From positions 1,694 to 65,693 of the forward strand of contig CAYVFG010000001.1 of assembly GCA_964450915.1 (NCBI GenBank): a stretch of 64,000 bases of DNA, written 5' to 3'. Under the pieces are notes generated by a model. It was not told where the DNA came from. It was given only the letters and a program-made list of their open reading frames with translations, and searched no databases. Within the stretch, counting starts at the first letter, position 1; every line of letters starts with the position of its first letter. Below are positions 1 through 33,091 of this stretch, in pieces. Origin of the DNA: an uncultured Candidatus Saccharibacteria bacterium. Lineage in GTDB: Bacteria > Patescibacteriota > Andersenbacteria > UBA10190. The position numbers and the translations under genes were made by a program.

Positions 1-1
1 T

Positions 2-2161
2 ATCGTCAACAATTCGGCCAGCGTGCAGACGATTAGCTTTGGTGGTACGGGCATCACCCTGGGTGCAGCACAGACGTGGAATTCAGGCCTTGTCCCGTTG
101 GGGGGGCTGAGTGTGGGCTCTGCGGTTGATCTGGCAGGTCAGGCACTGACGGTCGATGGCACCAACAATACAACCATCTCGGGTGCGATCTCTGACACGG
201 TTGTCGGCGGCTCACTTGTCAAAAATGGTTTAGGAACGCTTCTTTTGAGCGGCACGAACACCTTCACTGGGACCACCACCGTCAATCAGGGCATCCTGCA
301 GCTTCAAAACGGAGCAGCGATTGCAGACACGTCCGCAGTGACCGTGACGGCACCAGGTTCACTCGACCTGCTCACAAGTGAAACCATCGGCAGCCTTGCA
401 GGCAGCGGCGACACCACCCTCAACGCCAATACCCTGACCACAGGCGGTGACAACACCTCAACCACCTACAGTGGTGTTCTGAGTGGCGTCGGCGGCTCAC
501 TGGTCAAAAATGGCGCAGGAACGTTCACGACATCGAACATCCTTCCCAACACCTATACGGGCACCACGGCAGTCAACGCGGGAACTCTCAATGTGCTGGG
601 CACCCATGCCGGTGGCGGAAATTACACCATTGCCGCAGGCGCCACGCTTTCAGGCACGGGAATCATCACAGAGGCTGCGGGAGCTTCCATCTTCAACAAC
701 GGGGCGATTGTTGTAGGCGATTCCACAGTCATTCCTGTTGCATCCACACTCTCAATCACCACCTCAGGCGCAGGCGCGATCACCATGGGAGCCGGCAGTA
801 CTTTGGCGGTCGATCTCTTCACCGGTGCCGGTCTTGGAAACAACACCGTCATTCCAGGTTCTTCTGACACGTTCAACCTCGGCGGCAATCTCAATTCTGT
901 TGCTGGCGGCACCCTGGTCATTGGCAATCCTACAGCGATGACAGGCTTCACGGGTGGAGACAGCTGGAAAGTGGTGAATCTCGTTCCAGGCTCCATTACC
1001 GGCAATCTGGGTCTCACCGGCAATCTCGACACCTCTGCTCTGAATCTCACAGCGACTCAGGTGGGCAATTTCAGCCAGACTTCCGGTGTCTTCACGATCA
1101 TCGACACCATCACCGGTTTGCAAATGGCCAACGCCATGGGGCAGGCCGTGCTTGCCAGTACTCAGAGTGTCCTCACGGATGTGAATGGACGCCTGTTCTT
1201 CCTCCGTGCGGGTCAGGGCGACCTGTCCGATGACAGCGAGTACGACCAGGCCGTGGTCAATGATCCGGGCAACGGTTCTGGCAAGAACCCTGCACCAAGA
1301 CCAACGGTTCAGCGCCGTCCCCAGACGGGTCTGTGGCAGGTTTTTGCCACGGCAAACTACAACAACGCCAGGCTCGGCGCTCTCGGCAGTCAGCAGGCGG
1401 GAATCCAGTCTGACAGCTGGAGTCCAGGAGTCGGCGCTGAGGTTCATGTCACACCGAATGTGGCCATTGGTTTCGCCCTCAACTGGCTGGAGTCCAAACA
1501 GACCTTCGGGAATGGCGTCGGCTCCATGGACATGAATGGTTATGCACTGAGCGCCTACACTTCTTATGTGAAGAAGGCATTTTGGGCGGATCTCCTTTAT
1601 AGCTTCGGCAGCTATGACATCGAAACGAACCGCAACCCGATCGGGTTCGGCATGGCTAACGGTAACACCGACGCCTACACCAACACGGTGCAGTTTAACT
1701 CGGGCTGGAACTTCCGTTTCCAGAACAACAGCTTGGTGACCGGTCCGTTCATTGGACTCGACTACACCCACGTCTCCATTGACGCCTATGGAGAGTCTGG
1801 TGGCGGCCTTGGGGCCCTGGCCTACAACAAACGTACCGCTGAGTCCCTGATCTCCCGCATTGGCTGGTCGGTGAGCAAGTATGTCAAAACAGACTTCGCC
1901 GTCATCACTGCACAGGCCCGTCTGAGCTACGAGCGCCAGAACTTGAGCAACAACAGCGGCGCCACCATTGGCCTCATCAATCAGCCATTCGTGGTAAGCG
2001 GCGGCAGTCAGAGCTATGGCCAGGATTACATGGTCGCAGGAGCTGGCCTGAACTTCCAGTTCACGCCAAACCTCGGTTTGCTCCTCAACTACCAGGGTCA
2101 GTTCTTCCGTCAGTCAGTGCAGGCTCATTACGTGGGCCTGCGCCTCAGCTACAAATTCTAA
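2..2161 (+). CDS. Autotransporter-family outer-membrane protein (passenger with beta-strand repeats plus C-terminal beta-barrel), 5'-partial: frame is open to the window start
   Basis: G/T/S-rich repetitive passenger (GTLLLSGTNTFTGTTTVNQGILQLQNG repeated); C-terminal beta-barrel-like domain ending ...LRLSYKF (aromatic terminal residue); intrinsic terminator follows. Confidence 0.7.
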   Translation: MVNNSASVQTISFGGTGITLGAAQTWNSGLVPLGGLSVGSAVDLAGQALTVDGTNNTTISGAISDTVVGGSLVKNGLGTLLLSGTNTFTGTTTVNQGILQLQNGAAIADTSAVTVTAPGSLDLLTSETIGSLAGSGDTTLNANTLTTGGDNTSTTYSGVLSGVGGSLVKNGAGTFTTSNILPNTYTGTTAVNAGTLNVLGTHAGGGNYTIAAGATLSGTGIITEAAGASIFNNGAIVVGDSTVIPVASTLSITTSGAGAITMGAGSTLAVDLFTGAGLGNNTVIPGSSDTFNLGGNLNSVAGGTLVIGNPTAMTGFTGGDSWKVVNLVPGSITGNLGLTGNLDTSALNLTATQVGNFSQTSGVFTIIDTITGLQMANAMGQAVLASTQSVLTDVNGRLFFLRAGQGDLSDDSEYDQAVVNDPGNGSGKNPAPRPTVQRRPQTGLWQVFATANYNNARLGALGSQQAGIQSDSWSPGVGAEVHVTPNVAIGFALNWLESKQTFGNGVGSMDMNGYALSAYTSYVKKAFWADLLYSFGSYDIETNRNPIGFGMANGNTDAYTNTVQFNSGWNFRFQNNSLVTGPFIGLDYTHVSIDAYGESGGGLGALAYNKRTAESLISRIGWSVSKYVKTDFAVITAQARLSYERQNLSNNSGATIGLINQPFVVSGGSQSYGQDYMVAGAGLNFQFTPNLGLLLNYQGQFFRQSVQAHYVGLRLSYKF

Positions 2162-2187
2162 GTCATTAACGTTCACCGTTAAATCCC

Positions 2188-2223
2188 GGGGGGCATTGCT
2201 GAAAGGCAATGCCTCCTTTTTTG
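2188..2223 (+). terminator. Rho-independent terminator after the autotransporter gene
   Basis: GC stem gggcattgc / gcaatgcc followed by tttttt. Confidence 0.6.
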
Positions 2224-2228
2224 TGGCT

Positions 2229-3353
2229 CTAAATTCCCGCACGTTTCGCCCGCAGCACTTCCTCCACCTCTCCCAGCGGCAGGCAGTTGATCACATCCTT
2301 CCGCGTGAGCCAGCCTTTGCGGGCGGCTTTGATGCCATAGATCACCGCCTGCAATCCGTGCGTGCTGTGGGCATCGGGGTTGATGCTGCATTTCACGCCT
2401 TTCGCTTTCGCGAGCTTCCACCAGCGCCAGTCCATGTCCAGACGCCACGCGCTGGCGTTGAGCTCGATGATGGTGCCGGTTTCCGCGGCGGCATCGATCA
2501 CGGCAGCCACGTTCACATTGTAAGCAGGGCGCTGCAGCAGCAGCCGTCCCGTGAGATGTCCCAGCATGGTGACGTGCGGATTCTCAATGGCTCGAATGAT
2601 GCGCTTCGTCATCTCCGCCTCGGGCAAATTGAAGACGTTGTGCACGGAGGCGACCACATAATCGAGCTGGCCCATAATCTCGTCACTGAAATCGAGGCTG
2701 CCATCCTTGAGAATGTCCACCTCGCTGCCGGCAAAGATGCGGAAGCCCTCTTCGGCCATCTCCTCATTCAGTGCCTTGATCTCTTCGATTTGTTTCAACA
2801 GTCGCTTCTCATCCAGCCCATTCGCCTGGAAAGACGACTTGCTGTGATCGGCGATGCCAAGGTACTGCAAACCCAGCTCATGCGCCGCCTCCGCCATCTC
2901 GCGCAAAGTCGCGCCACCATCGCTGGCGGTGGTGTGGTTGTGAAAGACACCGCGCAGATTCTCAAGCTGGATGAGGCGTGGCAGACCACCGTGCTCGGCG
3001 GCATCTATCTCGCCCGTGTTCTCCCGCAGCTCAGGATCGATGAAGTCGAGATCCAGCGCGCGGTAGAGTTCCGCTTCATCATGAACCGGTGGAATGACCG
3101 GCGCATCCGCATGATCCGGCACCGGCGTGAAGCCATACTCATTGAGCGACCAGCCACGAGCAAGCGCACGCTGGCGGATGGCCACATTGTGCTCCTTGCT
3201 GCCGGTGAAGTAGACCAGCGCAAAAGGGAACTCCTTGCTCGATACGGCACGCAGATCGCACTGCACCCCATGAGTGACGTGCACACTGGCTTTCGTCGGC
3301 CCTTTGGCGATGACATCCACCACCAGTGGCAGTTGCACAAAGGACTCGATTAC
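2229..3353 (-). pseudogene. DNA polymerase X family fragment (thumb + PHP phosphoesterase domain only); N-terminal 8-kDa/palm region missing; frame closes with a stop inside the first hairpin of the repeat island
   Basis: FALVYFTGSKEHNVAIRQRALARGWSLNEYGF (PolX thumb) followed by a PHP-domain histidine-rich region; no ATG start; in-frame stop at 3354-3356 coincides with hairpin 3354-3376. Confidence 0.55.
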
Positions 3354-3939
3354 CTAGTAAGATTTTTCACTTGCTCCGCGCCCCAGTCAAGACCAGCATG
3401 CTGGAGAAAACGCTACCTATCTTCACAGCATTTAACACCAGCAAGAACAAATTCCTGCTCACAACTCTACGGAACCATGCCATACGTTAGTTGACTCTAC
3501 TGAACTACGCGACGATACACTAGCAAAGTTTCTTGCTCGTAACTTCACACCGGCTTAGTGAGCTGGACGTTAGGTAGCGGTATGATACCAGCAAGAATTG
3601 CTTCCTGCTCTCCACAAAAGGCCAATCAAGTTTAGTTTAATCAAGTCCACTGAATTGTACTAAAGCACGCACCCTAGCAAGAAATAAATCTTGCTCACGA
3701 CATTATTGTAGCGAAGTATACAGCTCCTAATCGTAGGATACTGGACAATGCGATAACACCAGCAAAATTTCTTTGCTCTCTGCTTTAGTCTGCAAAGGGG
3801 AACAACGAATTACTGGAGTCCGCTCAAGTGTATACACTAGCAGAATTTTCATTCTGCTCGCCAAGCAGTACAGTCAACCTCAATTCAGGACAGGTTAAGC
3901 CACGGCAGCATGCCAACACCAGCAAACAGCTGTTTGCTC
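3354..3939 (-). repeat. Hairpin-unit array 1a: 8 units of conserved short stem-loop (AGCAAG-loop-CTTGCT) separated by ~50-65 nt of unique sequence; CRISPR-like but noncanonical
   Basis: Hairpins at 3354-3376, 3437-3460, 3519-3538, 3587-3610, 3674-3696, 3758-3778, 3836-3859, 3918-3939; loops differ; mismatches resolve to G-U pairs on the minus strand. Confidence 0.7.
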
Positions 3940-4050
3940 GCAACCACGCGAAACTATACGTGACTGAAACTCACGTAACGACACTGCACCGAACCTAATT
4001 GAATCAATTGTCAAACAACGATCAACATCCCCCTTTCTGCTGAATATCAG

Positions 4051-4088
4051 GAACGGATTAAAATAACATATTATCATATTTTTTGCAA
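4051..4088 (-). promoter_or_regulatory. Conserved AT-rich junction element, promoter-like (TTGCAA -35-like box directly abutting the upstream terminator T-tract), reading toward array 1a
   Basis: ggaacggattaaaataacatattatcatattttttgcaag; near-identical copies at 7378-7420 and 9606-9650. Confidence 0.4.
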
Positions 4089-4118
4089 GAAAAAAGCGAG
4101 AGTAATGAAACTCTCGCT
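4088..4118 (-). terminator. Intrinsic terminator (minus strand) closing array 1b / helicase transcription unit
   Basis: stem agcgagag...ctctcgct followed by a T-tract on the minus strand (A-tract 4088-4095 on plus). Confidence 0.6.
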
Positions 4119-4173
4119 GTGCACTGTTGTTAACTTCACAGGAGGAAGCAAAACAGCACTTTACTTAATGAAC

Positions 4174-4770
4174 ACTAGCAAGAATTTCATCCTGCCCTGG
4201 ACAATAGCCTAGCTAACTAAAGAACGCTGGAGCGAAGACTACTAAAGCTCAAATACCAGCAAAATTTCTTTTGCTCTATACTACACCAAGCAGCAAGGAA
4301 GTGTGCGTTAGTCTACCAGAGATCACGCTATTTTATAGAAGCGAGAATTCTAAAATTCCCGCCCTGGAACATAGGATAAGGTACTTGGCGGAAGCCCGGG
4401 ATACTCAGCCTAATTTAAACTAGCAAGTTTTCTTGCTCGTTATGCTACGTGAGCATACGTTAGTCCAGATTGCTTAAGTCTGCGACACTCCACTCCAATA
4501 CCAGCAAGAAATAAATCTTGCTCTACAGAAAGCATAAGAACAAATTACTGGAGCCAACAAGACTGGACACTATACACTGGCAAAATTTCTTTGCCCGAAA
4601 CGTTAGGCCAGCCTAATTAAGTCTAGCGAGCTACGACATACAGGACGACACTATGTACACTAGCAAAAAATCTTGCTCTTTACCGAAGAGAACTCCACAA
4701 AGCCCTGCGAGAGCCTACCTAACTTCAGTGTAAGATATAAGAGAAGCGAGGATGCAAGCATCCTCGCCCT
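4174..4770 (-). repeat. Hairpin-unit array 1b: 9 units; immediately downstream (minus strand) of the helicase gene
   Basis: Hairpins at 4174-4197, 4255-4276, 4339-4364, 4419-4438, 4500-4523, 4576-4596, 4658-4678, 4746-4767 (plus 4339 and 4746 long-stem gcgag variants); 4500-4523 identical to 9424-9447. Confidence 0.7.
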
Positions 4771-4815
4771 ACACTCGGCTTCGCTGCAATTCAGAGCAGG
4801 TCACCATACTTCACT

Positions 4816-6672
4816 TCATGTTCTCTGACTCAGCAAATCCTCTGCATCACGAATGCAGTTCTCAAACGGCAAGTCGCTTCGGTAGGATTTCTCCAACCAA
4901 GGAGGCAAAGCCCCCCACACAATCTTCTTGAATTGTTGCGAGATGAAGAATGTAACTCCAACATCTCGCGTACTTCGAACATTGCGTCCGCGCACTTGTA
5001 ACGCTTGCTGCATCACACGCCAATTCCACAGCGCCCACCTGGCACCACCGAACCGCTTCTCTTCGAACTGTGTTCCGGGATCCGTTGGTACAGGGTATCC
5101 GGGCCGCAGAAAGAAGATGATCGGTGCAGTCTGTTTTGGCAGATCAACACCCTCAGCGTAGTTGGAAGCAGTGCCTACCAAGCAGTCGCCTACCCCTTCC
5201 TTGAACTTGATTGCGGCTTGCTTTGCGGTAACGCCATTCCCGTAGCTGATCGCTTCAAGCTTCTCTTCTTTTGCAAGCTGAAGAAACTTGTCACGCTCAT
5301 CATTGGAGATGGTAACCACCAAGCTGCGATGCCCCTTGAGCGCAAATCGTTTTGCCGCACGAGCAATCTTTCGAATGCTTTGTGTCATGTCGCGCGCAGT
5401 CCGCGTGTTCATGGCAAGATTCGGCGTGTCCGTCGGCAAGTACAGCCTTGTATTTCCCGAAGGAAAGTTGGATTGCAACTGCAAGCACGGAAACCGAATC
5501 CCCGTTTCGTGTCCGAAGATTTCAGGATCACCGATCGTCGCAGAAAATGCGACAGTCAGCGGAGGCAGAATCTTTCGAATCAGCGGGGCCACATAATAGC
5601 ACCGCACCACGAGCTTGCACTCCACTAAGTCTCGCTCTCCTTTCTCGAACTTGTAGAAGGCACACGTGTAATTGAGCGGCTTTCGCTCTTCGGTCTCGAG
5701 CGAATACTCAAAAGAATGTGAATACCGGCGCAAATCTCGCACCAGTGTTTCCAATTTCTTGAGCGCCACTCGATCCTCTTTCGCGTCGATGGTTCCGTTT
5801 CTCACGGCCTTCTCAATACGCGAAAGAAGTTTTCCCGAATCCACGTCTTCCAAGATCACCATCAAGCGGCGAAGTTCTGCATCCGTAAGAAGTACTGGCT
5901 CGTCGAGTTTCCTCTTCTTGCAAATGTACTTCATGGAAGCAAGAAACTTTTCCAGCACTTCAACTTCCGGAGCATCTATCCGAGTCAGCAATTCGATAGA
6001 CCGTTCCAGATGGTAATCTGTAATGTCGTACGAAAGCGAACTGCGAACGATTTCCGCAATCCGATGCGCTTCATCAATCACGAGCGCGCCCGTTTCCGGG
6101 AACTCATGACTGAACAGTTGAGTGAACAAGTAGAACGACGTGGTGCAAACCACGACGCCCCCTTGCTTCGCTTCGAACTTCTGCTGAAGATACGGACAAG
6201 CAGTTGCCCCCGGCTCAAACGTTTCTCCTGTTGTTTGATCAACCCGGTGAGGGCATGCCTTCAACATCGAACACGGAACTTCGTCAGCTTTGATGGTTTT
6301 TGAATCCAACGTAAGCTGAACCAGCTCTTCGTCACCGATGACTGATTGCCCTTGGTAATACAAGCACGGATGCTCGCATCGCCCCAAGGCAATTTTTACG
6401 TCTGGAAACTCCTCCCTGATTTGCCCTACCAACGTTTTGTTGGGAGTGACAAAAAATGAGGTACCTCCATCGCGCTGCACCGATGCTTCAAGCCATGCTT
6501 TGGCAACTGCCGTTTTCCCTGAACCTGTCGGGGATTCAACGACCGCAGACCCGTTCTGGGCCAAAAATTCCATCATTTCATCTTGGCCTTTCCATGGGCC
6601 ATTTGCGTACCTTCCGCCTCGCGGAAAGCTAGCCTGCAATGCGTTCAGGCTAAGAGGGTTCTGATGTTTCAT
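4816..6672 (-). CDS. Rad3/XPD/DinG-like superfamily-2 helicase with Fe-S cysteine cluster between Walker A and B (Csf4/DinG-like)
   Basis: Walker A ESPTGSGKTAV, DEAH box VIDEAHRIAEI, Cys-rich insert (CEHPC, CSMLKACPH, ACPYL, VVVCTT) between them; start ATG at 6670-6672 (MKHQNP) with GAGAAGGAA RBS. Confidence 0.7.
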   Translation of the reverse strand: MKHQNPLSLNALQASFPRGGRYANGPWKGQDEMMEFLAQNGSAVVESPTGSGKTAVAKAWLEASVQRDGGTSFFVTPNKTLVGQIREEFPDVKIALGRCEHPCLYYQGQSVIGDEELVQLTLDSKTIKADEVPCSMLKACPHRVDQTTGETFEPGATACPYLQQKFEAKQGGVVVCTTSFYLFTQLFSHEFPETGALVIDEAHRIAEIVRSSLSYDITDYHLERSIELLTRIDAPEVEVLEKFLASMKYICKKRKLDEPVLLTDAELRRLMVILEDVDSGKLLSRIEKAVRNGTIDAKEDRVALKKLETLVRDLRRYSHSFEYSLETEERKPLNYTCAFYKFEKGERDLVECKLVVRCYYVAPLIRKILPPLTVAFSATIGDPEIFGHETGIRFPCLQLQSNFPSGNTRLYLPTDTPNLAMNTRTARDMTQSIRKIARAAKRFALKGHRSLVVTISNDERDKFLQLAKEEKLEAISYGNGVTAKQAAIKFKEGVGDCLVGTASNYAEGVDLPKQTAPIIFFLRPGYPVPTDPGTQFEEKRFGGARWALWNWRVMQQALQVRGRNVRSTRDVGVTFFISQQFKKIVWGALPPWLEKSYRSDLPFENCIRDAEDLLSQRT

Positions 6673-6758
6673 GACCTTGCGTTCCTTCTCATTAATCATC
6701 CAAATTGTCAAACAGCACTGTTCGCAGCGCCAAAAAAGGCACAAGCTACGAACTCATT

Positions 6759-6788
6759 TTTATAGCATATCTTACTATTTTTGTAAAG
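6759..6788 (-). promoter_or_regulatory. Sigma70-like promoter for the helicase gene (TTTACA-N18-TATAAA)
   Basis: -35 tgtaaa at 6783-6788 and -10 tttata at 6759-6764 read on the minus strand. Confidence 0.4.
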
Positions 6789-6798
6789 TATCTTTGGG

Positions 6799-6832
6799 TA
6801 AAAAAAGAAGCAGGCGTTTTGGAACACCTGCT
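6799..6832 (-). terminator. Intrinsic terminator (minus strand) closing array 2a
   Basis: agcaggcgttttggaacacctgct stem-loop followed by T-tract (A-tract 6799-6807 on plus). Confidence 0.6.
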
Positions 6833-6895
6833 CGGTAACTTGCTTCACTGTGCCTAAGTGGACATCAGGACAAAGAACAACGCCTCAGTGGATAT

Positions 6896-7321
6896 ACCAG
6901 CAAGAATAAACTTGCTCTAGACTACTCGGAAGAATACTTCACTCGAGGACAGGTTGCGCTACACCAGTGCATTACACTAGCAAGCCGAAGCTTACTCAAG
7001 ACTCAGGGGTACGCCAGATTAGGCTGCTTAGCGAAACCTCGCGCTAGGCCATAACACTGGCAAATCGCAATTTGCTCCCTACACGACATTAGTTTGCTTG
7101 GCTAGGGTCTACAGTGCAGAAACGCACTATACAAAATCAAAGAGTAGCAAGAATTATTTCTTGCTCTGGGGTGAAAAGGACCACAGGATACGGTAGTGAA
7201 CTGCGACAAACTAGAAACACCAGCAAGAATAAACTTGCTCTCCACACCTACACAACTTTGCAACAGTATGCGAGACGCCAAAGTACTGAGGAATAACACT
7301 AGCAAGAAGTTATTCTTACCC
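6896..7321 (-). repeat. Hairpin-unit array 2a: 6 units
   Basis: Hairpins 6896-6917, 6976-6997, 7056-7077, 7143-7166, 7219-7240, 7298-7321. Confidence 0.7.
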
Positions 7322-7377
7322 TACAAAAAATGGCAATCTAGACTACTCGACCCAAGCCCACGGAATTTAATGAGTTG

Positions 7378-7455
7378 TTAAAGAACAAACTAAAATAACA
7401 CAAGATTATATATTTTGCAAGTAAAAAAAGAAGCAGGCGTTTAGAAACACCTGCT
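7378..7455 (-). terminator. Terminator (7423-7455) plus conserved promoter-like junction element (7378-7420) separating arrays 2b and 2a
   Basis: agcaggcgtttagaaacacctgct + T-tract, then TTGCAA and AT-rich box; near-identical to 9606-9685. Confidence 0.55.
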
Positions 7456-7510
7456 ACGCACGGAGCGCGAATTAACTCTACGTCAGAACGCTGTAGTTAA
7501 CTTCATTACC

Positions 7511-7783
7511 CTAGCAAGGAAGAAACCCTGCTCATAACCGTACTTACAAGACACTTAAGCAGGCAGCTGTATACTGCAGAGCGCATAACTACATACACTA
7601 GCAAGAAATGAATCTTGCTCTGCACGTTGCTTTGCTGCTGAATAATGGACTGCAGATAGCTGCACCTAACCGCGCATACCGGCAAGAATGCTCTTGCCCG
7701 CCACCCTAACCAACTGCTCAGCAATGGAGAGGACCCCAGTTTACCTTACTCAGAAGTAACAATGGCAAAGCGATCCCTTGCTC
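7511..7783 (-). repeat. Hairpin-unit array 2b: 4 units; begins 18 bp after the stop of the 211-aa RAMP-like gene (likely co-transcribed)
   Basis: Hairpins 7511-7533, 7597-7620, 7678-7699, 7761-7783. Confidence 0.65.
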
Positions 7784-7800
7784 GAACCTGAACGAGACAA

Positions 7801-8436
7801 TTACGAAGTTTGTTCGTTCCATTCACGAACCCGAAATGCTCCATACGGCCCCTTCTTATTGGGACGATACAATCCTAGCCCTTGACCTTGTCCAGCCATC
7901 TGAAACAATCGAACAAGTTTTTCACGAAGTATCATGTTGTGATCATACGAAATGTTGATCACGAATCCCCACTGGTCAAACCGGGGATATGAAGTGTAGA
8001 CCAATCCTCGGTGTCTCGATGTTTGAGGTGATATGTGACGTACGTGGCATACCCAATCGGGCTCTCGTTCGTCATGCCCGTTGGAAAGAACCGTGAATTC
8101 ATCTTCGAAACGAATGACCTCACTGATAATGTCTTCCGCGCTTCTGCAGCATCTAAGCGAGTTCTGACAACGAAGCGCAGCAACTACTGCCCCGCAAAGC
8201 ATTGAATTTGGTATCGCCACTTTACCCGCCGGATTCCGATAGATGCATGCTGCGGCACGATCTCTAAAAGATTCTCTTTTGATGACACTCATCACTTCTT
8301 CGGAAAATTTGTTCATGATGAGCGGACTTGTACCGATGCAGGCAATGGCAACTGAGCGCATGTCTGCTTCAGGATCTGCGACTCGACCAATCAGTATGCG
8401 GTCATTTACGATTACCATACGACGAATCTTCCCCAT
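7801..8436 (-). CDS. RAMP-like protein (Cas5/Cas6-like size, C-terminal glycine-rich loop), 211 aa
   Basis: C-terminal AGQGQGLGLYRPNKKGPYGAFRV glycine-rich loop; internal IPNSMLCGAVVAALR motif; paralogous to 11550-12206 and 10440-11348; GAGGAA RBS. Confidence 0.45.
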   Translation of the reverse strand: MGKIRRMVIVNDRILIGRVADPEADMRSVAIACIGTSPLIMNKFSEEVMSVIKRESFRDRAAACIYRNPAGKVAIPNSMLCGAVVAALRCQNSLRCCRSAEDIISEVIRFEDEFTVLSNGHDEREPDWVCHVRHISPQTSRHRGLVYTSYPRFDQWGFVINISYDHNMILREKLVRLFQMAGQGQGLGLYRPNKKGPYGAFRVREWNEQTS

Positions 8437-8543: not shown

Positions 8544-8575
8544 AAAAAAAGAAGCAGGCATATAAAACACCTGCT
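8544..8575 (-). terminator. Intrinsic terminator (minus strand) closing array 3
   Basis: agcaggcatataaaacacctgct + T-tract (A-tract 8544-8550 on plus). Confidence 0.55.
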
Positions 8576-8628
8576 CTAAAAGAAGCTACAGTGAACCTGG
8601 CTAGAATCTACGCTAGGACACGCAAATA

Positions 8629-9532
8629 CACTAGCAAGGGAACCCCTGCTCTGTGCCGTATTGAACCGCACGTTAGTTTACGCTGCGAGACCAAACGGCA
8701 ATACCAGCAAGACTAAACTTGCTCTCCCAGGACACAGTAATCTAGGTTACTGTACTACGCTCAAGTGATCTCTACAGAACAGAATAATACTAACAAGAAT
8801 GACAACACTCTTGCTCGATACGGCACCCTAGGAAACGTAACTCAACCCTAGAGTAGCGCTGACACAAGCAAAAACTTGCTCTCAACGAAACCTTTGTTCG
8901 CCTAACACCAGCCAACCGAGGGACACTGGGCATCAGAACACGCCAGTGCAAACAATAGCAAGATTTTTCTTGCTCGACACCAAAGGTGACGGGACTGAAC
9001 TACAGGCCAGAAAACTATATACACTAGCAGGAAGAGCCCTGCCCATAACTGCTGTGCGCACTAGTTGACGGGAACACACGTAACCCTGGGGGACCTAATA
9101 CACTAGCAAATCGGAACTTGCCCAACACCTTAGCCGGCATTAACACACTAAACGCAAGCCTAGCGGAACTAAGACAGAAGCAAGCAACGCTTGCTGATTA
9201 CTAAGGCGAAGAAAACTCTGCTCAAGTCAAGGACTCTCAACTCAAGTCTACCTAAAATACTAGCAAGGAAATTCTTGCTCAGCATGACACACTACCGCTC
9301 AGCACAACAGACTTCTGAAGAAAGCTACAGGCTAGAGAAGATTAATACTAGCAAGAAAACTTGCTCATCACTTCAGAAAGGAAAACGTTGCGAAAGTAGA
9401 CTGTGCGTTACTCTGGGTAATACACCAGCAAGAAATAAATCTTGCTCGCTAGCGGAGCGTATAATAGCGAACTCAAGAAAACCTGGCGGGGCTGCACTCC
9501 ACTTCAACACTAGTAAGAAAGGCTTCTTGCTC
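8629..9532 (-). repeat. Hairpin-unit array 3: 12 units
   Basis: Hairpins 8629-8651, 8703-8724, 8789-8816, 8864-8883, 8954-8975, 9023-9044, 9102-9123, 9177-9197, 9259-9280, 9347-9366, 9424-9447, 9509-9532. Confidence 0.7.
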
Positions 9533-9605
9533 TTTAGTACACTCGAAAATGGGCCACGAAACTAGGCAAGAGCAAACCTAAGTTCACTACACGTACTTCT
9601 TAAGT

Positions 9606-9685
9606 TGTTAAAGAACGAATTAAAATAACACAAGATTATATTTTTTGCAAGTAAAAAAAGAAGCAGGCGTTTGGAAACACCTGCT
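9606..9685 (-). terminator. Terminator (9653-9685) plus conserved promoter-like junction element (9606-9650) between arrays 4 and 3
   Basis: agcaggcgtttggaaacacctgct + T-tract; TTGCAA abuts the T-tract; AT-rich box follows. Confidence 0.55.
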
Positions 9686-9732
9686 CGAGACTGAGCCTAA
9701 GCCCACTAGAGAGCACGTAACATCACGTGAAT

Positions 9733-10305
9733 ACTAGCAAGAGACTTCTTGCTGCGCGCCAAAGATAACGACAAGAAAGAACACGATACTACGCCAGACG
9801 AACATACACCAGCAAGTCGAAACCTGCCCCAAACGCCACCGTGACATACAATATCGTACGACACTCAAACAAGCTATACTGAATCCAGCAAACCAGCAGA
9901 ACTATTTCTGCCCTCGACAAAACGGCGCCGTAGACGACTTGAATATAGGGTACTGTGCTAAACCAAATACACTAGCAAGGCTTGGCCCTGCTCCTCACGA
10001 AAGACGAGATTACCCCAGCAGACTCAACTTTAGAGTGCAGTGCGATAACACAAGCAAGAAAATTCTTGCTCTCGAGAACGGGGTGCTTTACGCCGGGGTA
10101 CGTAAGCCGACGCCAGGGTAACTTATAACACAAGCGAGCAACTTCTCGCTCTGCACCAAACCAAACTGGAATGTAGGTAACAGTGTCGTAGCGCAGAATA
10201 TCACACAAGCAAGAATAAACTTGCTCACCACTATAGCGGACCGTGCCAGGCATGAGTCCAGTCGACGTGACGAGAGCACATTATAATAGCAAGAGAGTCT
10301 TGCTC
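9733..10305 (-). repeat. Hairpin-unit array 4: 8 units
   Basis: Hairpins 9733-9754, 9808-9829, 9892-9913, 9971-9993, 10049-10073, 10129-10151, 10204-10226, 10287-10305. Confidence 0.7.
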
Positions 10306-10365
10306 ACAAACAATAGTCGAACGGACCGGAACAAACTGCACTAAAGCACGCTTGACGTTAATAAA

Positions 10366-10398
10366 GAAGCGGGCAATTCAGATGAATCACCCGCTTTG
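10366..10398 (-). terminator. Probable terminator after the 312-aa RAMP-like gene
   Basis: aagcgggcaattcagatgaatcacccgctt stem-loop with weak T-tract on the minus strand. Confidence 0.4.
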
Positions 10399-10439: not shown

Positions 10440-11348
10440 TTACACCAGCGAGATGCCGTATGCCTGCTTGGCAAATGATGTTTGTCGAGGAGTGGAAAAT
10501 CTCCCACCCGACCGAACAAATGGTTCATCAAGCTTTTCGTACGTCACCCGCTCACCAGGTACCAAGAACTGCCGAAGTGGGCGCTTCGGAGCGTCTCGCC
10601 ATCCGACGCGCGCCGTAATCCGCTGATCACCCACGTAGGTGATGATCGTGCCGACACCTCGAGCTTGGTAGAAACTTTCCACCACGCCTTCGTTGTCTTG
10701 AAGATCATGCGGAACTTGCAACTCAGGCTCCTCCACATACTCCGCTCCCGAAGGAATGACGAGTTCTGGACGAACAAGTTGTTCCATCAACATCCAGTCT
10801 GCCAACAAATTGTTGAACGACTGGTGCCGTTCGAGCCGCGGAAATGTTGGTCCGTCTCGATCAACGCATTGCAATCGATCATAGGCAAGTTGAACGGTGA
10901 GAAAGAAGTTGCCGCCTTGCGAGACGACCGCCACCTTCCACACGTTCATAAGATTCGTAGGCGAGCTCCCGTTCAAGACAAGCCCTGCAATGCAGAGCAT
11001 GTTGTTGGGGTAGCTCACGAACGATTCGCCTTGGCCATCGGTGCTGGCTTCGACCGGCATCTTAATGCCGTACACCTTCGATCCAGAAGGAAGTCCGCGA
11101 GCGGCTACTGCCGCTTGCATCTCCTTCTGAAATGGCTTTTTGGGCTCGCCAGGCGCAGCCCAGTCTCGCTGAAGCCTGCACTCGTCGCTGCCTTGTCGGA
11201 TAAATCCGAAGCAAGGAACGCCGGGGTCAACCGTGGCATCCAACACGACATGCCCAGAATAGAGCTTGCCCATGGACCCGTCTTCCGCAACGTCGATCAA
11301 TCGACCTTGCTTGTAGACATTCAGCGTAACACCAGGAATCCGAATCAT
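10440..11348 (-). CDS. RAMP-like protein, ~303 aa (Cas7-like size), paralogous motif to the two ~215-aa proteins
   Basis: YPNNMLCIAGLVLNG motif shared with IPNSMLCGAVVAAL / LPAQMLIAALVTAG; upstream TTGACA-N17-TACAAA promoter; fully antisense ORF 10482-11375 judged to be a shadow. Confidence 0.4.
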   Translation of the reverse strand: MIRIPGVTLNVYKQGRLIDVAEDGSMGKLYSGHVVLDATVDPGVPCFGFIRQGSDECRLQRDWAAPGEPKKPFQKEMQAAVAARGLPSGSKVYGIKMPVEASTDGQGESFVSYPNNMLCIAGLVLNGSSPTNLMNVWKVAVVSQGGNFFLTVQLAYDRLQCVDRDGPTFPRLERHQSFNNLLADWMLMEQLVRPELVIPSGAEYVEEPELQVPHDLQDNEGVVESFYQARGVGTIITYVGDQRITARVGWRDAPKRPLRQFLVPGERVTYEKLDEPFVRSGGRFSTPRQTSFAKQAYGISLV

Positions 11349-11549: not shown

Positions 11550-12206
11550 CTAAGCCGCCGCTTTGCCTTCTTCCTTTCCGTCGACCACGATCTTGATGGT
11601 GTTGTCGGATGAAGCGACAGCGTCGTCGTTCCATTCGATGACCCGGAACATTCCGTACGGCCCCTTCTTGTTCGGGCGGAACGATCCGAGTCCCTGGCTG
11701 GTACCGGCGTTGGCGAACAGCTTGAGAACCGAGTCGCGTCCGGCGATCTTTTCGTCGTACGTGAGCTCAACTTCGAACGCCCATTCGTCGCATCGCGGAC
11801 GGACGACGCACACAGCCACGGGACTCGCCGAAGCATTGCTGACGCCTCGCCTGCTGTCGGGAACCCATGTCGGCTCCTTCCCATCCCGACCGTTCGTGAG
11901 GTACAGGTGCTGGCTCGTCACCGTCAAGAAGTCGAACAAAGTCGTGGTCTGCGCTGTCGAGACCTGCTTCTTGCCGAGCTTGACATTGCGACCAGCGGTC
12001 ACCAACGCTGCGATCAGCATCTGTGCCGGCAGGGCGAGCTTACCATCCTTGTCGGTGTAGACCTTTTCCTTGGCCTTTTCCTCTTGAGGACGATCCTTCT
12101 GGAGTTGGAGCCGAACGCCGGTATCGAGGCTTTTGAGCACCTCTTCCGACATCCGATCCATCAACAAAGGGCTGATCCCCACGCACACGCATCGAACTTT
12201 TCGCAT
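11550..12206 (-). CDS. RAMP-like protein (Cas5/Cas6-like size, C-terminal glycine-rich loop), 218 aa
   Basis: AGTSQGLGSFRPNKKGPYGMFRVIEWND loop nearly identical to the 211-aa paralog; LPAQMLIAALVTAGR motif; GGAG RBS. Confidence 0.45.
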   Translation of the reverse strand: MRKVRCVCVGISPLLMDRMSEEVLKSLDTGVRLQLQKDRPQEEKAKEKVYTDKDGKLALPAQMLIAALVTAGRNVKLGKKQVSTAQTTTLFDFLTVTSQHLYLTNGRDGKEPTWVPDSRRGVSNASASPVAVCVVRPRCDEWAFEVELTYDEKIAGRDSVLKLFANAGTSQGLGSFRPNKKGPYGMFRVIEWNDDAVASSDNTIKIVVDGKEEGKAAA

Positions 12207-12377: not shown

Positions 12378-12560
12378 TTACGACTTCTTGGCATTTTGAG
12401 AAAGATGAGCGTACTTGTTTTGCGCCTTCCCTCTCCTCAAGCGCCTGCTTTTGCGAGTCTCGCCGCCCGGTTTCTTCATCTTCTTGCTGCTGCCGCTTTT
12501 CCCACTTGTACCAGTAAAGTGGGTACTTTTGTGAGAATGCCCACGATTACTACGAGCCAT
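12378..12560 (-). CDS. Small lysine/arginine-rich hypothetical protein (60 aa)
   Basis: MARSNRGHSHKS...; followed by the terminator at 12316-12352; no family recognised. Confidence 0.3.
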   Translation of the reverse strand: MARSNRGHSHKSTHFTGTSGKSGSSKKMKKPGGETRKSRRLRRGKAQNKYAHLSQNAKKS

Positions 12561-12678: not shown

Positions 12679-13341
12679 GTGATATTTATGAATATACGAA
12701 ACACGTTTATAAAAACTGTCGGATTTGCTCTCGTACTTGTAAGTTCATTTTTACTTGTACCAGTAACGCATGCATCTACAGGATTACTTGATCGCGTACA
12801 TGAAGCGCTCGTTACTGCCAATCTTCCCACTGACCAAAAAACGCAGCAAGCATACGACGTATGCGTTATCAGCGGACACTATACAACATTCGAACAATTG
12901 GTAAACGCAATGAAATGGCAAAAACAACACGGCCATACTATTCCAGATGTAATGAAGTGCATGGACACGAAGAATGTTTGGAAATTCACCGGAGAAGTCA
13001 CAGAAGTAAACAAATGGAAGCTGGAAACAGTTGGTGTTACAAAAAATGGATTGGAAACTCGGCCGAAGTTCGATATTACCAACCATACCGTTGTAAAACA
13101 TGGCGTGCTGTTATTCGATGCAAACTACCAGATGCACTACAACGTGAAGGATGAAATTCGAAGAGGTTCTGCCGTTACCGTATGGGCAACACACAACAAT
13201 GAAGCGCTGATTATCCAGAACAATGCGCCGCACGGACAAGGAGACTATTACGGACACGTTGATTGCCCGTCATGCCAAGTAGACAATACATTTGCCGCAA
13301 CCCCAGATCCGATTATCAACGAATATCACTGCGAAGATTAA
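12679..13341 (+). CDS. Secreted hypothetical protein (signal peptide), paralog of 13480-13896
   Basis: AGAGGTGA RBS; N-terminal hydrophobic signal; C-terminal VTVWATHNNEALIIQNNAPHGQGDYYGHVDCPSCQ shared with the neighbour; terminator follows. Confidence 0.6.
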   Translation: MIFMNIRNTFIKTVGFALVLVSSFLLVPVTHASTGLLDRVHEALVTANLPTDQKTQQAYDVCVISGHYTTFEQLVNAMKWQKQHGHTIPDVMKCMDTKNVWKFTGEVTEVNKWKLETVGVTKNGLETRPKFDITNHTVVKHGVLLFDANYQMHYNVKDEIRRGSAVTVWATHNNEALIIQNNAPHGQGDYYGHVDCPSCQVDNTFAATPDPIINEYHCED

Positions 13342-13479: not shown

Positions 13480-13896
13480 ATGAAAACATTACACAAGATA
13501 CGCGCAGTAAGCGCCGCAGTTGCTGTTATTATTTCAATCGCTTTCTTTCAGTTTGCGCGTGCCGCAGACACCACATTTACTCCCGGAACCTGGGTATTTA
13601 CCGGCATGGTAACGGAAGTAAATCAGAACAAGATTGAGTTATTTGGAATGAATGCAAACGGAGTAGAGGCATGGCCAAAATTCAGCATCACGCCCGATAC
13701 TCAAGTAAAAAACGGGGTCTTATTGTTCAATGCAAGCAACGACGTTCGATGGAATGTTCCCAACGAAATCCAGCGAGGATCATCGGTAACAGTATGGGCG
13801 ACCACATCCGGCAAGGCAATGGTTATTAAAAACAATGCTCCGGCAGGCCAAGCAGACTACTACGGACAAGTTGACTGCTCGCATTGCGGCAGTTAA
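13480..13896 (+). CDS. Secreted hypothetical protein, shorter paralog of 12679-13341
   Basis: GAAGGTGA RBS; signal peptide; VTVWATTSGKAMVIKNNAPAGQADYYGQVDCSHCG. Confidence 0.6.
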   Translation: MKTLHKIRAVSAAVAVIISIAFFQFARAADTTFTPGTWVFTGMVTEVNQNKIELFGMNANGVEAWPKFSITPDTQVKNGVLLFNASNDVRWNVPNEIQRGSSVTVWATTSGKAMVIKNNAPAGQADYYGQVDCSHCGS

Positions 13897-30506: not shown

Positions 30507-31847
30507 CTAAACGATTCGAATATTTACCCTGTCTTTAGCGACACAGATCGAATTATTTATAGCATAGCATTCGACATAAGATCTGCTCGGAAATGCAGTG
30601 CTCTCTATACCATTTTTCGTACCGCCTTTAGTAATTTCACCTCTTGGATCTTTAGAATTATCACTATTCTTAACCTTCCACCAATAATCATCTGCTCCGG
30701 TTTCATTATTTCTGATAGAAAATCTTATTTTTCGTGTCCTATGACCGCCCGAGGAAACGCCATTTTTTCTTAAAAGAGGCGTTGCTTTTAACCAGCCATG
30801 CAAGAAGCCGCTAAGGGGGTGAACATTCCCATCAATTTTAAATACCAGGCCCTGATCAATCAGAGTTTTGATTTTAAAATCGAATAGATATTCTTCCGAT
30901 GCTATTCTTGAAGTAAAATCAATTTCCATTAGTTTTTCTATCGAACCTTCTTCGCTGAGTCGCTCTAGCTTGATTAGAAAATTATCCCTCGCTGTTTTGA
31001 TTTTTTCCTTCTGAACCTCCGTTAGCTTGTCTAGATAGTCATCAATAAATTTATCGCTATTTGCACGGTCATGAATTTGGTTAGGCTTATTTATTATATC
31101 CGGCAATTCAACAAAAAATTTAAAAATGGCATCAAATATCTCTAGATTATTGTTCTCTTGGAAAAATATTGTGACAATTTGCTCAAGATGAAATGACTTT
31201 AGTTTGAGCTCATTATCCATGTCTTCCAAATTATTTTTCCATTTTTTGACAATCTTGGAAGTTTTTCTAAATTCTCCGCTGGTAGCATTATCTATTTCCG
31301 AAGCCACTTTAATATATCCCCTAGGATCAGATGTAATCCATCCCATATCGCCATGCTGCTGCGAAAGCTTCTCATAATACATAGTACGGTTTTTATGTTT
31401 TTCCTGAATCACTTCCGGCACCTTATATACATCTTCACTAAATTCATTTTTTGAGAAAATATAAACAGGAACAATATCAACAGAGAATACCTCCTCGCTA
31501 CTCTCAAAATATGCAACAGTTACAGAGTGGGTTTGTAGCTGCACTTTAATCTTATAATCAGTAGGGTTGCTATAGTCGCTTTCAATTTTATCCCGCAATT
31601 CTTCTAAAGAGTCTAATGGATTATGAATATTTTCATCCCAATTTCCCAAAAAATACAGGATATCAAGGTCCTGTACATGGGTAATAGCTGTAAATCGCGG
31701 ATACGATCCAATTTGGATACAATTATTATCCCCTAGCAAATCCTGAAAAGATTCGTAGATCTCCTTAATTTGTTCCCGCTCACCCTCCTTCGGAGATAGC
31801 GTTCGTGCGTAACTCCGTAACTTTTCGTTAAACTTATCTTTTTTCAT
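30507..31847 (-). CDS. Minimal nucleotidyltransferase, SMODS/CD-NTase-like (446 aa) with uncharacterised C-terminal region
   Basis: IGSYPRFTAITHVQDLDILYFL (GS...DxD NTase motif) and downstream FSVDIVP third acidic residue; AT-rich. Confidence 0.5.
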   Translation of the reverse strand: MKKDKFNEKLRSYARTLSPKEGEREQIKEIYESFQDLLGDNNCIQIGSYPRFTAITHVQDLDILYFLGNWDENIHNPLDSLEELRDKIESDYSNPTDYKIKVQLQTHSVTVAYFESSEEVFSVDIVPVYIFSKNEFSEDVYKVPEVIQEKHKNRTMYYEKLSQQHGDMGWITSDPRGYIKVASEIDNATSGEFRKTSKIVKKWKNNLEDMDNELKLKSFHLEQIVTIFFQENNNLEIFDAIFKFFVELPDIINKPNQIHDRANSDKFIDDYLDKLTEVQKEKIKTARDNFLIKLERLSEEGSIEKLMEIDFTSRIASEEYLFDFKIKTLIDQGLVFKIDGNVHPLSGFLHGWLKATPLLRKNGVSSGGHRTRKIRFSIRNNETGADDYWWKVKNSDNSKDPRGEITKGGTKNGIESTAFPSRSYVECYAINNSICVAKDRVNIRIV

Positions 31848-32391: not shown

Positions 32392-32417
32392 ATCTTATCC
32401 ACAGGTATAATGAAAAT

Positions 32418-33038: not shown

Positions 33039-33091
33039 TCCGAACTATTCTTTTTGGTCAAAAATAATCAATCTTCTGATTTAGCAATTCG

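What the first reader, a model, noticed from the sequence alone, without database searches (positions are those of the whole stretch)
4816..6788. XPD/DinG-type Fe-S helicase with its own promoter, co-transcribed with a hairpin array
- The Walker A and DEAH motifs are separated by a ~150-aa insert carrying at least four cysteines (CEHPC, CSMLKACPH, ACPY). This is the hallmark of the Rad3/XPD/DinG Fe-S domain.
- Type IV CRISPR systems use a DinG helicase (Csf4) as signature protein.
- A TTTACA-N18-TATAAA promoter lies at 6759-6788.
- Array 1b starts 46 bp after the stop codon with no terminator in between.
Basis: partly seen in the sequence, partly recalled or inferred. Interest (0 to 1): 0.6.

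Follow-up and report, generated by a model that had tools for sequence, protein, structure and literature searches.

The report
Fe-S helicase of a VIPR guide-RNA system
The gene is a real XPD/DinG-type iron-sulfur helicase, but it belongs to a recently described VIPR RNA-guided system (two small RAMP proteins and about 51 pentamer-repeat guide RNAs) in a candidate-phyla-radiation bacterium, not to a type IV CRISPR-Cas system.

Summary
A 618-aa minus-strand ORF (6672-4816) carries Walker A, DEAH and a 145-aa insert with four family-conserved cysteines. Its model superposes best on E. coli DinG and archaeal XPD.

The type IV CRISPR hint does not hold. The score against the Csf4 model is 16 bits (cut-off 400), and there are no csf/cas genes and no true CRISPR repeats.

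The "hairpin arrays" are six transcription units with about 51 units in total. Each unit is 9-15 pentamers of the form [G/C][T/C]NNN followed by a covarying 7-bp hairpin. Two paralogous ~215-aa proteins in the locus match the solved SUSP1 Vipr protein (E 6e-14) and fold like Cas7.

This is therefore a VIPR system (bioRxiv 2026) of the YNNNG repeat class, with the helicase as its accessory (vap) gene.

- In 71 related loci, almost all Patescibacteria, 68 have period-5 tracts beside the helicase.
- A Vipr gene lies within the flanks in 68 of 74 sources.

The most likely role, by inference only, is a 5'-3' motor recruited to Vipr-vrRNA-bound DNA, analogous to CasDinG. No targets were found. I rate it a new member of a known kind.

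The parts
4816..6672 (-). XPD/DinG-type Fe-S helicase (618 aa), the accessory (vap) gene of the VIPR locus
   Evidence: Pfam Helicase_C_2, DEAD and DEAD_2. Walker A, DEAH and four conserved Cys. AF2 model pLDDT 88; best folds are DinG 6fws and XPD 9p55. Linked to Vipr in 68 of 74 sources.
6759..6787 (-). promoter-like site of the helicase: TTTACA, 17-nt spacer, (TGc)TATAAA
   Evidence: Read. Same TTGACA-N14-TGC-TAnnnn layout as the promoters of vipr1, p302 and vipr2. Consensus match only.
4095..4815 (-). vrRNA array E: 9 units downstream of the helicase, ending in terminator 4118-4095
   Evidence: Tail hairpins and tracts. Terminator. The first tract starts at the helicase stop codon.
3356..4088 (-). 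promoter (TTGCAA 4088-4083, TATTTT 4065-4060) and vrRNA array F (8 units), cut off at about 3356-3340
6808..7420 (-). promoter (TTGCAA 7420-7415, TATTTT 7397-7392), vrRNA array D (7 units) and terminator 6833-6808
7432..7800 (-). vrRNA array C (5 units) downstream of vipr2, with terminator 7455-7432
7801..8436 (-). vipr2: second Vipr paralogue (211 aa), promoter 8534-8506
   Evidence: 35% identical to vipr1, E 1e-41. Vipr HMM E 1.9e-63. phrog_4652. Promoter.
8552..9650 (-). promoter (TTGCAA 9650-9645, TATTTT 9627-9622), vrRNA array B (13 units) and terminator 8576-8552
9661..10366 (-). vrRNA array A (9 units), promoter-like TTGTGA-N18-TATAAT at 10309-10280, terminator 9686-9661
10440..11348 (-). 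p302: orphan 302-aa protein, lineage-specific extra gene directly after vipr1
   Evidence: Homologues lie directly after the first vipr gene in L001 and L005, and after two Vipr ORF fragments in L040. Seven clusters in total. No Pfam, PADLOC, PHROG or PDB match.
11550..12206 (-). vipr1: Vipr-family minimal RAMP (218 aa), promoter TTGACA 12310-12305, terminator 11488-11465
   Evidence: Family profile against PDB 36pp_D 'SUSP1 Vipr protein': E 5.8e-14, full length. AF2 pLDDT 89. Foldseek top hits are Cas7-family Cmr4/Csm3/type VII Cas7.

Best explanation
The helicase is the accessory (vap) protein of a chromosomal VIPR (Viral Interference Programmable Repeat) system in a Candidatus Andersenbacteria-like CPR bacterium.

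The locus (about 12310-3356, minus strand) encodes two Vipr paralogues (minimal Cas7-like RAMPs), an orphan 302-aa protein and the helicase. It also holds six promoter-to-terminator units with about 51 vrRNAs. Each vrRNA has 9-15 pentamers of the form [G/C][T/C]NNN, which is the 'YNNNG' relaxation of the canonical YNNGG repeat. Each ends in a 7-bp tail hairpin.

Shown here: the homology, the anatomy and the conserved linkage.

Inferred from the SUSP1 work: Vipr protomers coat each vrRNA, one per pentamer. They hide the (N)-G/C-Y bases and present the variable bases. The filament then binds double-stranded DNA of a mobile element by gapped pairing.

Inferred by analogy with CasDinG and Cas3: the Fe-S XPD/DinG-type helicase has no nuclease domain. 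It is recruited to the bound target, loads on displaced single-stranded DNA and translocates 5'-3'. This would extend or enforce interference by clearing polymerases or blocking replication, without cutting.

Confidence in the identity is about 0.85. Confidence in the helicase's exact role is about 0.4.
For: Helicase family:
- Pfam Helicase_C_2 and DEAD_2.
- Four conserved Cys between Walker A and DEAH.
- Profile hits to XPD 8e-20, CHL1, FANCJ and E. coli DinG 1e-9.
- AF2 model fits DinG and XPD at TM 0.62-0.71.

Vipr:
- Profile of the 211/218-aa family hits the solved SUSP1 Vipr at E 5.8e-14 over its full length.
- Cas7-like fold.
- Both paralogues hit phage family phrog_4652.

vrRNAs:
- In 45 tracts, period-5 power has z=15.7 and period-2.5 power z=25.7 against shuffles.
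- 81% of 486 pentamers start with S-Y, against 26% expected.
- In 51 tail hairpins, 5 of 7 stem pairs show compensatory changes.

Linkage:
- A Vipr gene lies within the flanks in 68 of 74 sources.
- Period-5 tracts lie within 1.5 kb of the helicase in 68 of 71 loci. Their density is 13-15 per kb, against 1 per kb beyond 4 kb.

Guide tracts are not conserved between relatives with 77-79% identical helicases, whereas promoters, terminators and tails are.

Literature: VIPR types III-V carry nuclease or helicase vap genes, and YNNNG repeats are a recognised variant. The structural basis of GGY sequestration is described.

In this family the SUSP1 G1-contacting residues H17 and D177 are replaced by D17 and S175. 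The G2 and Y contacts R138, W178 and R179 correspond to R136, F176 and R177. This fits a relaxed first G.
Against: - No target was found. There is no self-match above shuffled controls in the window or 73 loci. Seven pattern scans of viral contigs gave nothing beyond chance.
- The decoding rule for this repeat class is untested.
- The preprint text does not describe the helicase type. Its figures and supplements were not readable, so assignment to 'type IV VIPR' is by elimination only.
- Nothing here shows expression, RNP formation or helicase recruitment.
- In the SUSP1 structures the non-target strand is held inside the filament, so where a helicase would load is unclear.
- In L003 the downstream array has its own terminator and promoter after the helicase. 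Co-transcription is therefore not a conserved feature.
Confidence: 0.8

Rival explanations
1. It is Csf4/CasDinG of a degenerate or novel type IV CRISPR-Cas system, and the hairpin arrays are CRISPR arrays.
For: - The best PADLOC hit is a profile named typeIV_DinG 'CAS-IV-A; associated': 3e-41, full length. All 36 family members hit it, best 7e-49.
- The arrays are regularly spaced hairpins with unique sequence in between.
- A RAMP protein is present.
Against: - cas_csf4 TIGR03117 scores 16.5 bits against a 400-bit cut-off.
- The other Csf4 PADLOC models score at most 20 bits.
- No solved CasDinG appears in the 60 listed profile matches (E up to 0.006), whereas XPD scores 8e-20.
- Fold ranking puts CasDinG at ranks 24-36 (TM 0.57) below DinG and XPD.
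- No Csf1/2/3/5 or Cas1/2/6 hits.
- The repeats are degenerate, with only the stem and RGTGT conserved.
- The 'spacers' are themselves pentamer repeats, which CRISPR spacers are not.
Confidence: 0.03
2. It is a housekeeping DNA-repair helicase (DinG/YoaA/XPD orthologue) that merely lies next to unrelated non-coding repeats.
For: - An intact Fe-S helicase core with no extra domains.
- The locus is chromosomal. In L001 and L005 it sits among translation genes, between fusA and tuf.
Against: - Scores against the curated DinG, YoaA and rad3 equivalogs are 26-46 bits, against cut-offs of 247-789.
- The family is a compact clade of 69 50%-identity clusters, with a sharp drop to other XPD-like proteins.
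- It is found almost only in Patescibacteria.
- It is nearly always flanked by Vipr and period-5 arrays.
- Its genomic context differs between genomes.
Confidence: 0.03
3. The helicase is a genuine VIPR component but acts on the RNP rather than on target DNA. It might unwind or strip vrRNA precursors, recycle Vipr filaments, or help generate new guide units.
For: - No processing enzyme is recognisable: no Cas6, no ribozyme, and Rfam finds nothing.
- The guide repertoire turns over quickly between relatives.
- The helicase gene sits inside the array region and appears to be co-transcribed with one array.
Against: - XPD/DinG-family enzymes are 5'-3' DNA helicases (established knowledge). Some also act on R-loops and DNA-RNA hybrids, which fits action at the target.
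- The closest functional precedents, CasDinG and Cas3, act on target DNA.
- No polymerase, integrase or ligase that could support guide acquisition was recognised among the locus proteins.
Confidence: 0.12

Closest known systems
VIPR systems (Viral Interference Programmable Repeat; bioRxiv 10.64898/2026.04.26.720920 and 10.64898/2026.04.26.720927), in particular the helicase-bearing type (probably type IV)
   Same: - A Vipr-family minimal RAMP.
- vrRNAs made of tandem pentamers with a structured 3' tail.
- Arrays in the intergenic regions flanking vipr.
- One adjacent accessory gene predicted to act on DNA.
- The YNNNG repeat variant is listed in the preprint.
   Different: - The characterised systems (SUSP1, P. 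fulva; type II) are phage- or prophage-borne. They have 1-4 vrRNAs, strict GGY, a pseudoknot tail and a DNA-binding Vap.
- Here the locus is chromosomal in a CPR bacterium with about 51 vrRNAs in six transcription units.
- It has two Vipr paralogues, an extra orphan protein, a simple hairpin tail and relaxed (N)(G/C)(Y).
- It has an Fe-S helicase that the preprint mentions only as 'helicases'.
Type IV-A CRISPR-Cas (Csf complex plus CasDinG/Csf4)
   Same: - A RAMP-based RNA-guided DNA-binding complex.
- It is paired with an XPD/DinG-superfamily helicase and no nuclease.
- It has no adaptation module of its own.
- The likely outcome is interference without cleavage.
   Different: - Not a Csf4 family member (16.5 bits against 400).
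- It keeps four Fe-S cysteines, whereas CasDinG is reported to have only a vestigial Fe-S domain (from my knowledge of Domgaard et al. 2023; not tested here).
- No Csf1, Csf3 or Csf5.
- Guides are pentamer repeats rather than contiguous spacers.
XPD/Rad3 and bacterial DinG/YoaA repair helicases
   Same: - Walker A and DEAH.
- An Fe-S domain with four Cys, an Arch domain, and HD1/HD2.
- These are the best sequence and fold matches.
   Different: - Far below the curated family cut-offs.
- A separate compact clade.
- Dedicated genomic linkage to Vipr and vrRNA arrays.

Membership tests
XPD/Rad3/DinG Fe-S helicases (SF2) | Walker A (GxGKT) and DEAH motifs | tested here: met
   GSGKT at 50-54 and DEAH at 200-203.
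XPD/Rad3/DinG Fe-S helicases (SF2) | Fe-S domain with four conserved Cys inserted between motifs I and II | tested here: met
   C103, C140 and C159 in 36 of 36 members, C134 in 32 of 36. C99 is not conserved.
XPD/Rad3/DinG Fe-S helicases (SF2) | Pfam DEAD_2 plus Helicase_C_2 signature and the four-domain fold | tested here: met
   Helicase_C_2 scores 45.5 bits (cut-off 25.3). DEAD_2 scores 21.8 bits (cut-off 21), which is borderline. The AF2 model matches DinG 6fws/6fwr and XPD 9p55 at TM 0.62-0.68 and E 1e-25.
XPD/Rad3/DinG Fe-S helicases (SF2) | Bound 4Fe-4S cluster and 5'-3' DNA unwinding | not testable with these tools
   Needs purified protein.
CasDinG / Csf4 (type IV CRISPR-Cas) | Match to the curated Csf4 model (TIGR03117, cut-off 400 bits) | tested here: not met
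   16.5 bits. PADLOC Csf4 models score at most 20 bits. Only the 'CAS-IV-A; associated' profile PDLC01439 scores 140 bits.
CasDinG / Csf4 (type IV CRISPR-Cas) | Neighbouring csf1, csf2, csf3 and cas6/csf5 genes | tested here: not met
   No Pfam or PADLOC hit for the four other locus proteins scanned at E <= 0.01; the 60-aa ORF was scanned only against PHROGs.
CasDinG / Csf4 (type IV CRISPR-Cas) | CRISPR array of near-identical direct repeats separated by non-repetitive spacers | tested here: not met
   The repeats are degenerate hairpins with covarying stems. The spacers are 5-nt periodic.
VIPR system | Vipr protein: minimal RAMP homologous to SUSP1 Vipr, with an RRM core and G-loop | tested here: met
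   Profile against PDB 36pp_D: E 5.8e-14, aligned 1-194 of 205 profile positions and 1-192 of 202 residues. Invariant G-loop G172-x-G174-x-x-R177-P178. Cas7-like fold.
VIPR system | vrRNA made of tandem pentanucleotide repeats (YNNGG or a related consensus) | tested here: met
   Period-5 z=15.7. The pentamer matrix is [G .55/C .26][T .73/C .17]NNN, with 9-15 pentamers per unit. This is the YNNNG class named in the preprint.
VIPR system | Conserved structured 3' tail capping each repeat tract | tested here: met
   51 hairpins with a 7-bp consensus stem, 5 pairs showing compensatory changes. It is a hairpin rather than the SUSP1 pseudoknot.
VIPR system | Adjacent vap accessory gene conserved with vipr | tested here: met
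   Helicase and Vipr co-occur in 68 of 74 sources. Most misses are contig edges.
VIPR system | vrRNAs expressed, bound by Vipr, and directing gapped (1-nt-skip) recognition of DNA | not testable with these tools
   Needs RNA sequencing and biochemistry.
VIPR system | Guides match mobile-element targets | tested here: inconclusive
   No match above shuffled controls locally. Seven viral-contig pattern scans gave zero hits or chance-level extension. Only exact-seed searches were possible.

The most novel reading that the evidence does not exclude
The CPR helicase-type VIPR is a host-domesticated, nuclease-free interference machine. A Vipr filament reads a relaxed (N)(G/C)(Y)NN code and hands the target to a true Fe-S XPD-like motor. 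It would then be either the closest surviving relative of the ancestor of type IV CRISPR-Cas (Csf plus CasDinG) or an independent convergence on the same RAMP-plus-DinG solution.

On this reading, the ~51-guide, fast-turning-over, non-CRISPR repertoire implies an unknown way of generating new guides in episymbiotic bacteria.
Probability: 0.2. Interest if true: 0.75.

Novelty: new member of a known kind. Interest (0 to 1): 0.45.

Why it matters
VIPR was described only in 2026, and only its phage-borne, DNA-binding-Vap type has been characterised. The helicase-bearing type is mentioned there in one phrase.

This locus offers a well-delimited example for study:
- clean promoters and terminators;
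- about 51 guides;
- two Vipr paralogues;
- an intact Fe-S XPD-like helicase.

It also shows that the helicase, Vipr and pentamer arrays travel together across Patescibacteria.

It makes three questions directly testable. How does an accessory motor couple to a triplex-forming RNA-guided filament? Does the relaxed YNNNG code change the decoding rule? Did RAMP-plus-DinG interference arise before CRISPR?

It also warns annotators that 'typeIV_DinG' profile hits in CPR genomes mark VIPR, not CRISPR-Cas.

Tried and rejected
- **Rfam and tRNA scans of the whole window:** nothing found, so no ribozyme or known RNA family between units.
- **Type IV CRISPR-Cas:** rejected, as set out in the membership test.
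- **TIGR-Tas:** it surfaced in the literature search, but the 'DinG' hit was an author's name. TIGR arrays yield 36-nt RNAs and use Nop-domain proteins, so it is not applicable.
- **Type III toxin-antitoxin repeats, integron attC sites, plain terminator/REP arrays:** considered from the anatomy. Dropped once the 5-nt periodicity and the Vipr homology appeared.
- **Coherent Fourier analysis over whole arrays:** failed because the phase resets in every unit. Per-tract analysis worked.
- **Target prediction, local:** no self-match above shuffles in the window plus 73 loci, testing only the three variable bases per pentamer with 0- or 1-nt skips; the 2-nt-skip case merely recovers each guide's own locus. 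The NN + 1-nt-skip rule was tested only in the viral-contig scans.
- **Target prediction, viral contigs:** seven exact-pattern scans. Three used three bases per pentamer, with 1-nt skip or 0 skip. Four used NN plus 1-nt skip. The 17 seed hits extend at chance level.
- **p302:** homologue search, Pfam, PADLOC, PHROGs and a profile against PDB all gave nothing.
- **Exact look-up of the helicase's contig:** not on record. The organism was inferred from the BipA cluster names.
- **Preprint supplements and figures:** not available. The VIPR type number is therefore inferred by elimination.
Full report
**1. The observation**

The minus-strand ORF 6744-4816 most likely starts at ATG 6672. That gives 618 aa, the length of the identical public protein P0001.

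It carries Walker A (GSGKT, residues 50-54) and DEAH (200-203), 145 residues apart. Five cysteines lie in between. Across 36 family members, C103, C140 and C159 are invariant and C134 is present in 32 of 36. C99 is not conserved.

Pfam finds Helicase_C_2, DEAD and, at the borderline, DEAD_2.

The promoter-like site is TTTACA (6787-6782), a 17-nt spacer and TATAAA (6764-6759) with a TGc extension. It sits just after the terminator of the upstream unit (6833-6808).

The first hairpin begins 46 nt after the stop codon. The scanner calls that hairpin terminator-like, but its T tail is weak.

**2. What surrounds it**

All on the minus strand, from about 12310 to 3356, there is a chain of transcription units. 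Each has a promoter of one recurring design and a strong terminator.

| Unit | Content |
|---|---|
| 1 | 218-aa protein (12206-11550) |
| 2 | 302-aa protein (11348-10440), then array A |
| 3 | array B |
| 4 | 211-aa protein (8436-7801), then array C |
| 5 | array D |
| 6 | helicase, then array E |
| 7 | array F |

I catalogued 51 hairpins spaced 68-90 nt apart. Their alignment gives a 7-bp consensus stem (AGCAAGn...nCTTGCT). Five of the seven pairs keep pairing through changes on both sides. A conserved RGTGT follows the stem. Six of the hairpins are extended and double as the terminators.

**3. The 'spacers' are pentamer repeats**

The 45 inter-hairpin tracts are 50-76 nt long. They have strong per-tract periodicity at 5 nt (z=15.7) and at 2.5 nt (z=25.7), and at no other period tested.

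An expectation-maximisation fit gives the pentamer [G .55/C .26][T .73/C .17]NNN. There are 9-15 pentamers per unit. Of 486 pentamers, 81% begin with S-Y, against 26% expected. All six arrays use the same code.

The tract of the first unit of array E starts at the helicase stop codon.

**4. The small proteins are Vipr homologues**

The 218-aa and 211-aa proteins are paralogues (35% identity, E 1e-41). They have no Pfam or PADLOC hit.

A profile of their family matches PDB 36pp_D, 'SUSP1 Vipr protein', at E 5.8e-14 over the full length.

The AF2 model (pLDDT 89) finds Cas7-family subunits first (Cmr4, Csm3, type VII Cas7; E about 1e-6, TM about 0.5). That structure library predates the Vipr entries. 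Both paralogues also hit the phage family phrog_4652.

VIPR systems were reported in 2026 (bioRxiv 10.64898/2026.04.26.720920). Their features, are:
- Vipr is a minimal RAMP.
- vrRNAs are 9-16 YNNGG pentamers followed by a structured tail.
- Double-stranded DNA is read through the variable bases with a one-nucleotide skip.
- Seven types carry different vap accessory genes.
[quoted passage not shown]' Types III and V are said to be the only nuclease types.
- Variant repeats NNNGG, YNNNG and NNNNG are noted.

The present repeat is the YNNNG variant.

The companion structure paper gives the SUSP1 contacts. G1 is read by H17 and D177. G2 is read by R138 and W178. Y3 is read by R179.

In the alignment, these residues correspond here to D17, S175, R136, F176 and R177. 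The G1 contacts are therefore lost while the G2 and Y contacts are kept. That fits a relaxed first G and suggests the two bases after Y are the pairing bases. This last step is inference.

**5. The helicase belongs to the system**

Its homologues are 50-88% identical over the full length. They come almost entirely from Patescibacteria MAGs.

Against 1.84 billion cluster representatives, only 69 score E <= 1e-30. There is a sharp drop from family members (E 1e-91 at 35% identity) to generic XPD-like proteins at about 27% identity.

| Test across fetched loci | Result |
|---|---|
| Vipr gene within the flanks | 68 of 74 sources |
| Period-5 tracts within 1.5 kb of the helicase | 68 of 71 loci |
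| Density of flagged windows near the helicase | 13-15 per kb |
| Density beyond 4 kb | 1 per kb |

Most of the sources lacking Vipr are contig edges. L003, a complete 692-kb Paceibacterota genome, shows the minimal layout: vipr, array, helicase, array. In L003 the downstream array has its own terminator and promoter.

The genomic neighbourhood differs between genomes. In L001 and L005 the locus lies between fusA and tuf. In L003 it is next to metabolic and ribosomal genes. Here it is next to BipA.

**6. Helicase versus known families**

| Comparison | Result |
|---|---|
| Curated YoaA, DinG, rad3 models | 26-46 bits (cut-offs 247-789) |
| Curated Csf4 model | 16.5 bits (cut-off 400) |
| Family profile vs human XPD | 8e-20 |
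| Family profile vs CHL1, FANCJ | about 3e-16 and 6e-16 |
| Family profile vs archaeal XPD | 4e-13 |
| Family profile vs E. coli DinG | 1e-9 |
| Family profile vs CasDinG | not among the 60 matches shown (E up to 0.006) |
| AF2 model (pLDDT 88) vs DinG 6fws/6fwr, XPD 9p55 | TM 0.62-0.68 |
| AF2 model vs CasDinG structures | ranks 24-36, TM about 0.57 |

One loose end remains. PADLOC profile PDLC01439 ('typeIV_DinG; CAS-IV-A; associated') hits every family member, at best 7e-49. That indicates a related but distinct group. I could not determine which sequences built that profile.

**7. Biology**

Guide tracts are not shared with relatives whose helicases are 77-79% identical. Promoters, terminators and tails are shared. 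The repertoire therefore turns over quickly, as expected for conflict with mobile elements.

I found no targets.

The host is probably Candidatus Andersenbacteria, judging from the BipA cluster names.

**8. Mechanism proposed**

Vipr1/2 coat each vrRNA and bind matching double-stranded DNA. This rests on homology to the SUSP1 work.

The Fe-S helicase has no nuclease domain. I propose that it is recruited to the bound site and translocates 5'-3' to enforce interference, as CasDinG does for type IV-A and Cas3 does for type I. This is analogy only and is not shown here.

The roles of p302 and of the second Vipr are unknown.

**9. Verdict**

This is a real and well-organised system.

It is a member of the recently described VIPR kind, probably its helicase type. 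It has lineage-specific elaborations: about 51 guides, two Viprs, p302, a hairpin tail and a relaxed code. Interest is moderate.

Noticed in passing
window 30507-37101: A low-GC (37-40%) defence island. It holds a SMODS plus AGS_C (CBASS-like) cyclase, a 185-aa unknown protein, a LexA-like S24 repressor, and type III restriction-modification Res (778 aa) and Mod (558 aa). RadC lies at 37177-37887.
   Followed up: partly
window 1-3356: A 57% GC segment carries an autotransporter (23-2161, +) and an N-terminally truncated PolX/PHP gene (2229-3338, -). It abuts the last, cut-off vrRNA unit (tail 3375-3356). An outer-membrane autotransporter is unexpected in a CPR bacterium, so this is probably an assembly chimera or contig junction.
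   Followed up: partly
window 10440-11348 (-): An orphan 302-aa protein encoded directly after vipr1. There are only seven clusters in 5.8 billion proteins. In related Andersenbacteria-like loci L001 and L005 it sits directly after the first vipr gene, and in L040 after two Vipr ORF fragments. It has no Pfam, PADLOC, PHROG or PDB match.
   Followed up: yes
window 12378-12560 (-): A 60-aa extremely basic ORF (MARSNRGHSHKS...KKS). It has its own strong promoter (TTGACG-N16-TATAAT, 12634-12607) and a terminator, and lies immediately upstream of vipr1. It has weak hits to small ORFs next to the helicase in L051, L006 and L030.
   Followed up: partly
window 12679-13341 (+) and 13480-13896 (+): Two paralogous predicted secreted proteins (220 and 138 aa, E 5e-36 to each other) flank the locus. 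They have no family assignment.
   Followed up: no
L001 5816-17814; L005 3661-12640: In the two closest genomes the whole VIPR locus sits just upstream of tuf; in L001 it lies between fusA and tuf of the str operon, while in L005 only the tuf-like gene downstream was identified. The layout matches the window: vipr1, p302, array, (vipr2, array in L005), helicase, array. About 13 of the related loci fetched also show two Vipr hits, some of them overlapping ORF fragments.
   Followed up: partly
window 4744-4769 and 4340-4363 (-): Two tail hairpins in array E (units E1 and E6) have longer GC-rich stems. They are followed by TCTnTnATA rather than RGTGT. They may act as attenuators or as a second tail class.
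   Followed up: no
helicase family (alignment A2): PADLOC profile PDLC01439 'typeIV_DinG; CAS-IV-A; associated' matches all 36 family members at 1e-41 to 7e-49, while true Csf4 models do not. Annotation pipelines may therefore mislabel CPR VIPR loci as type IV CRISPR remnants.
   Followed up: partly
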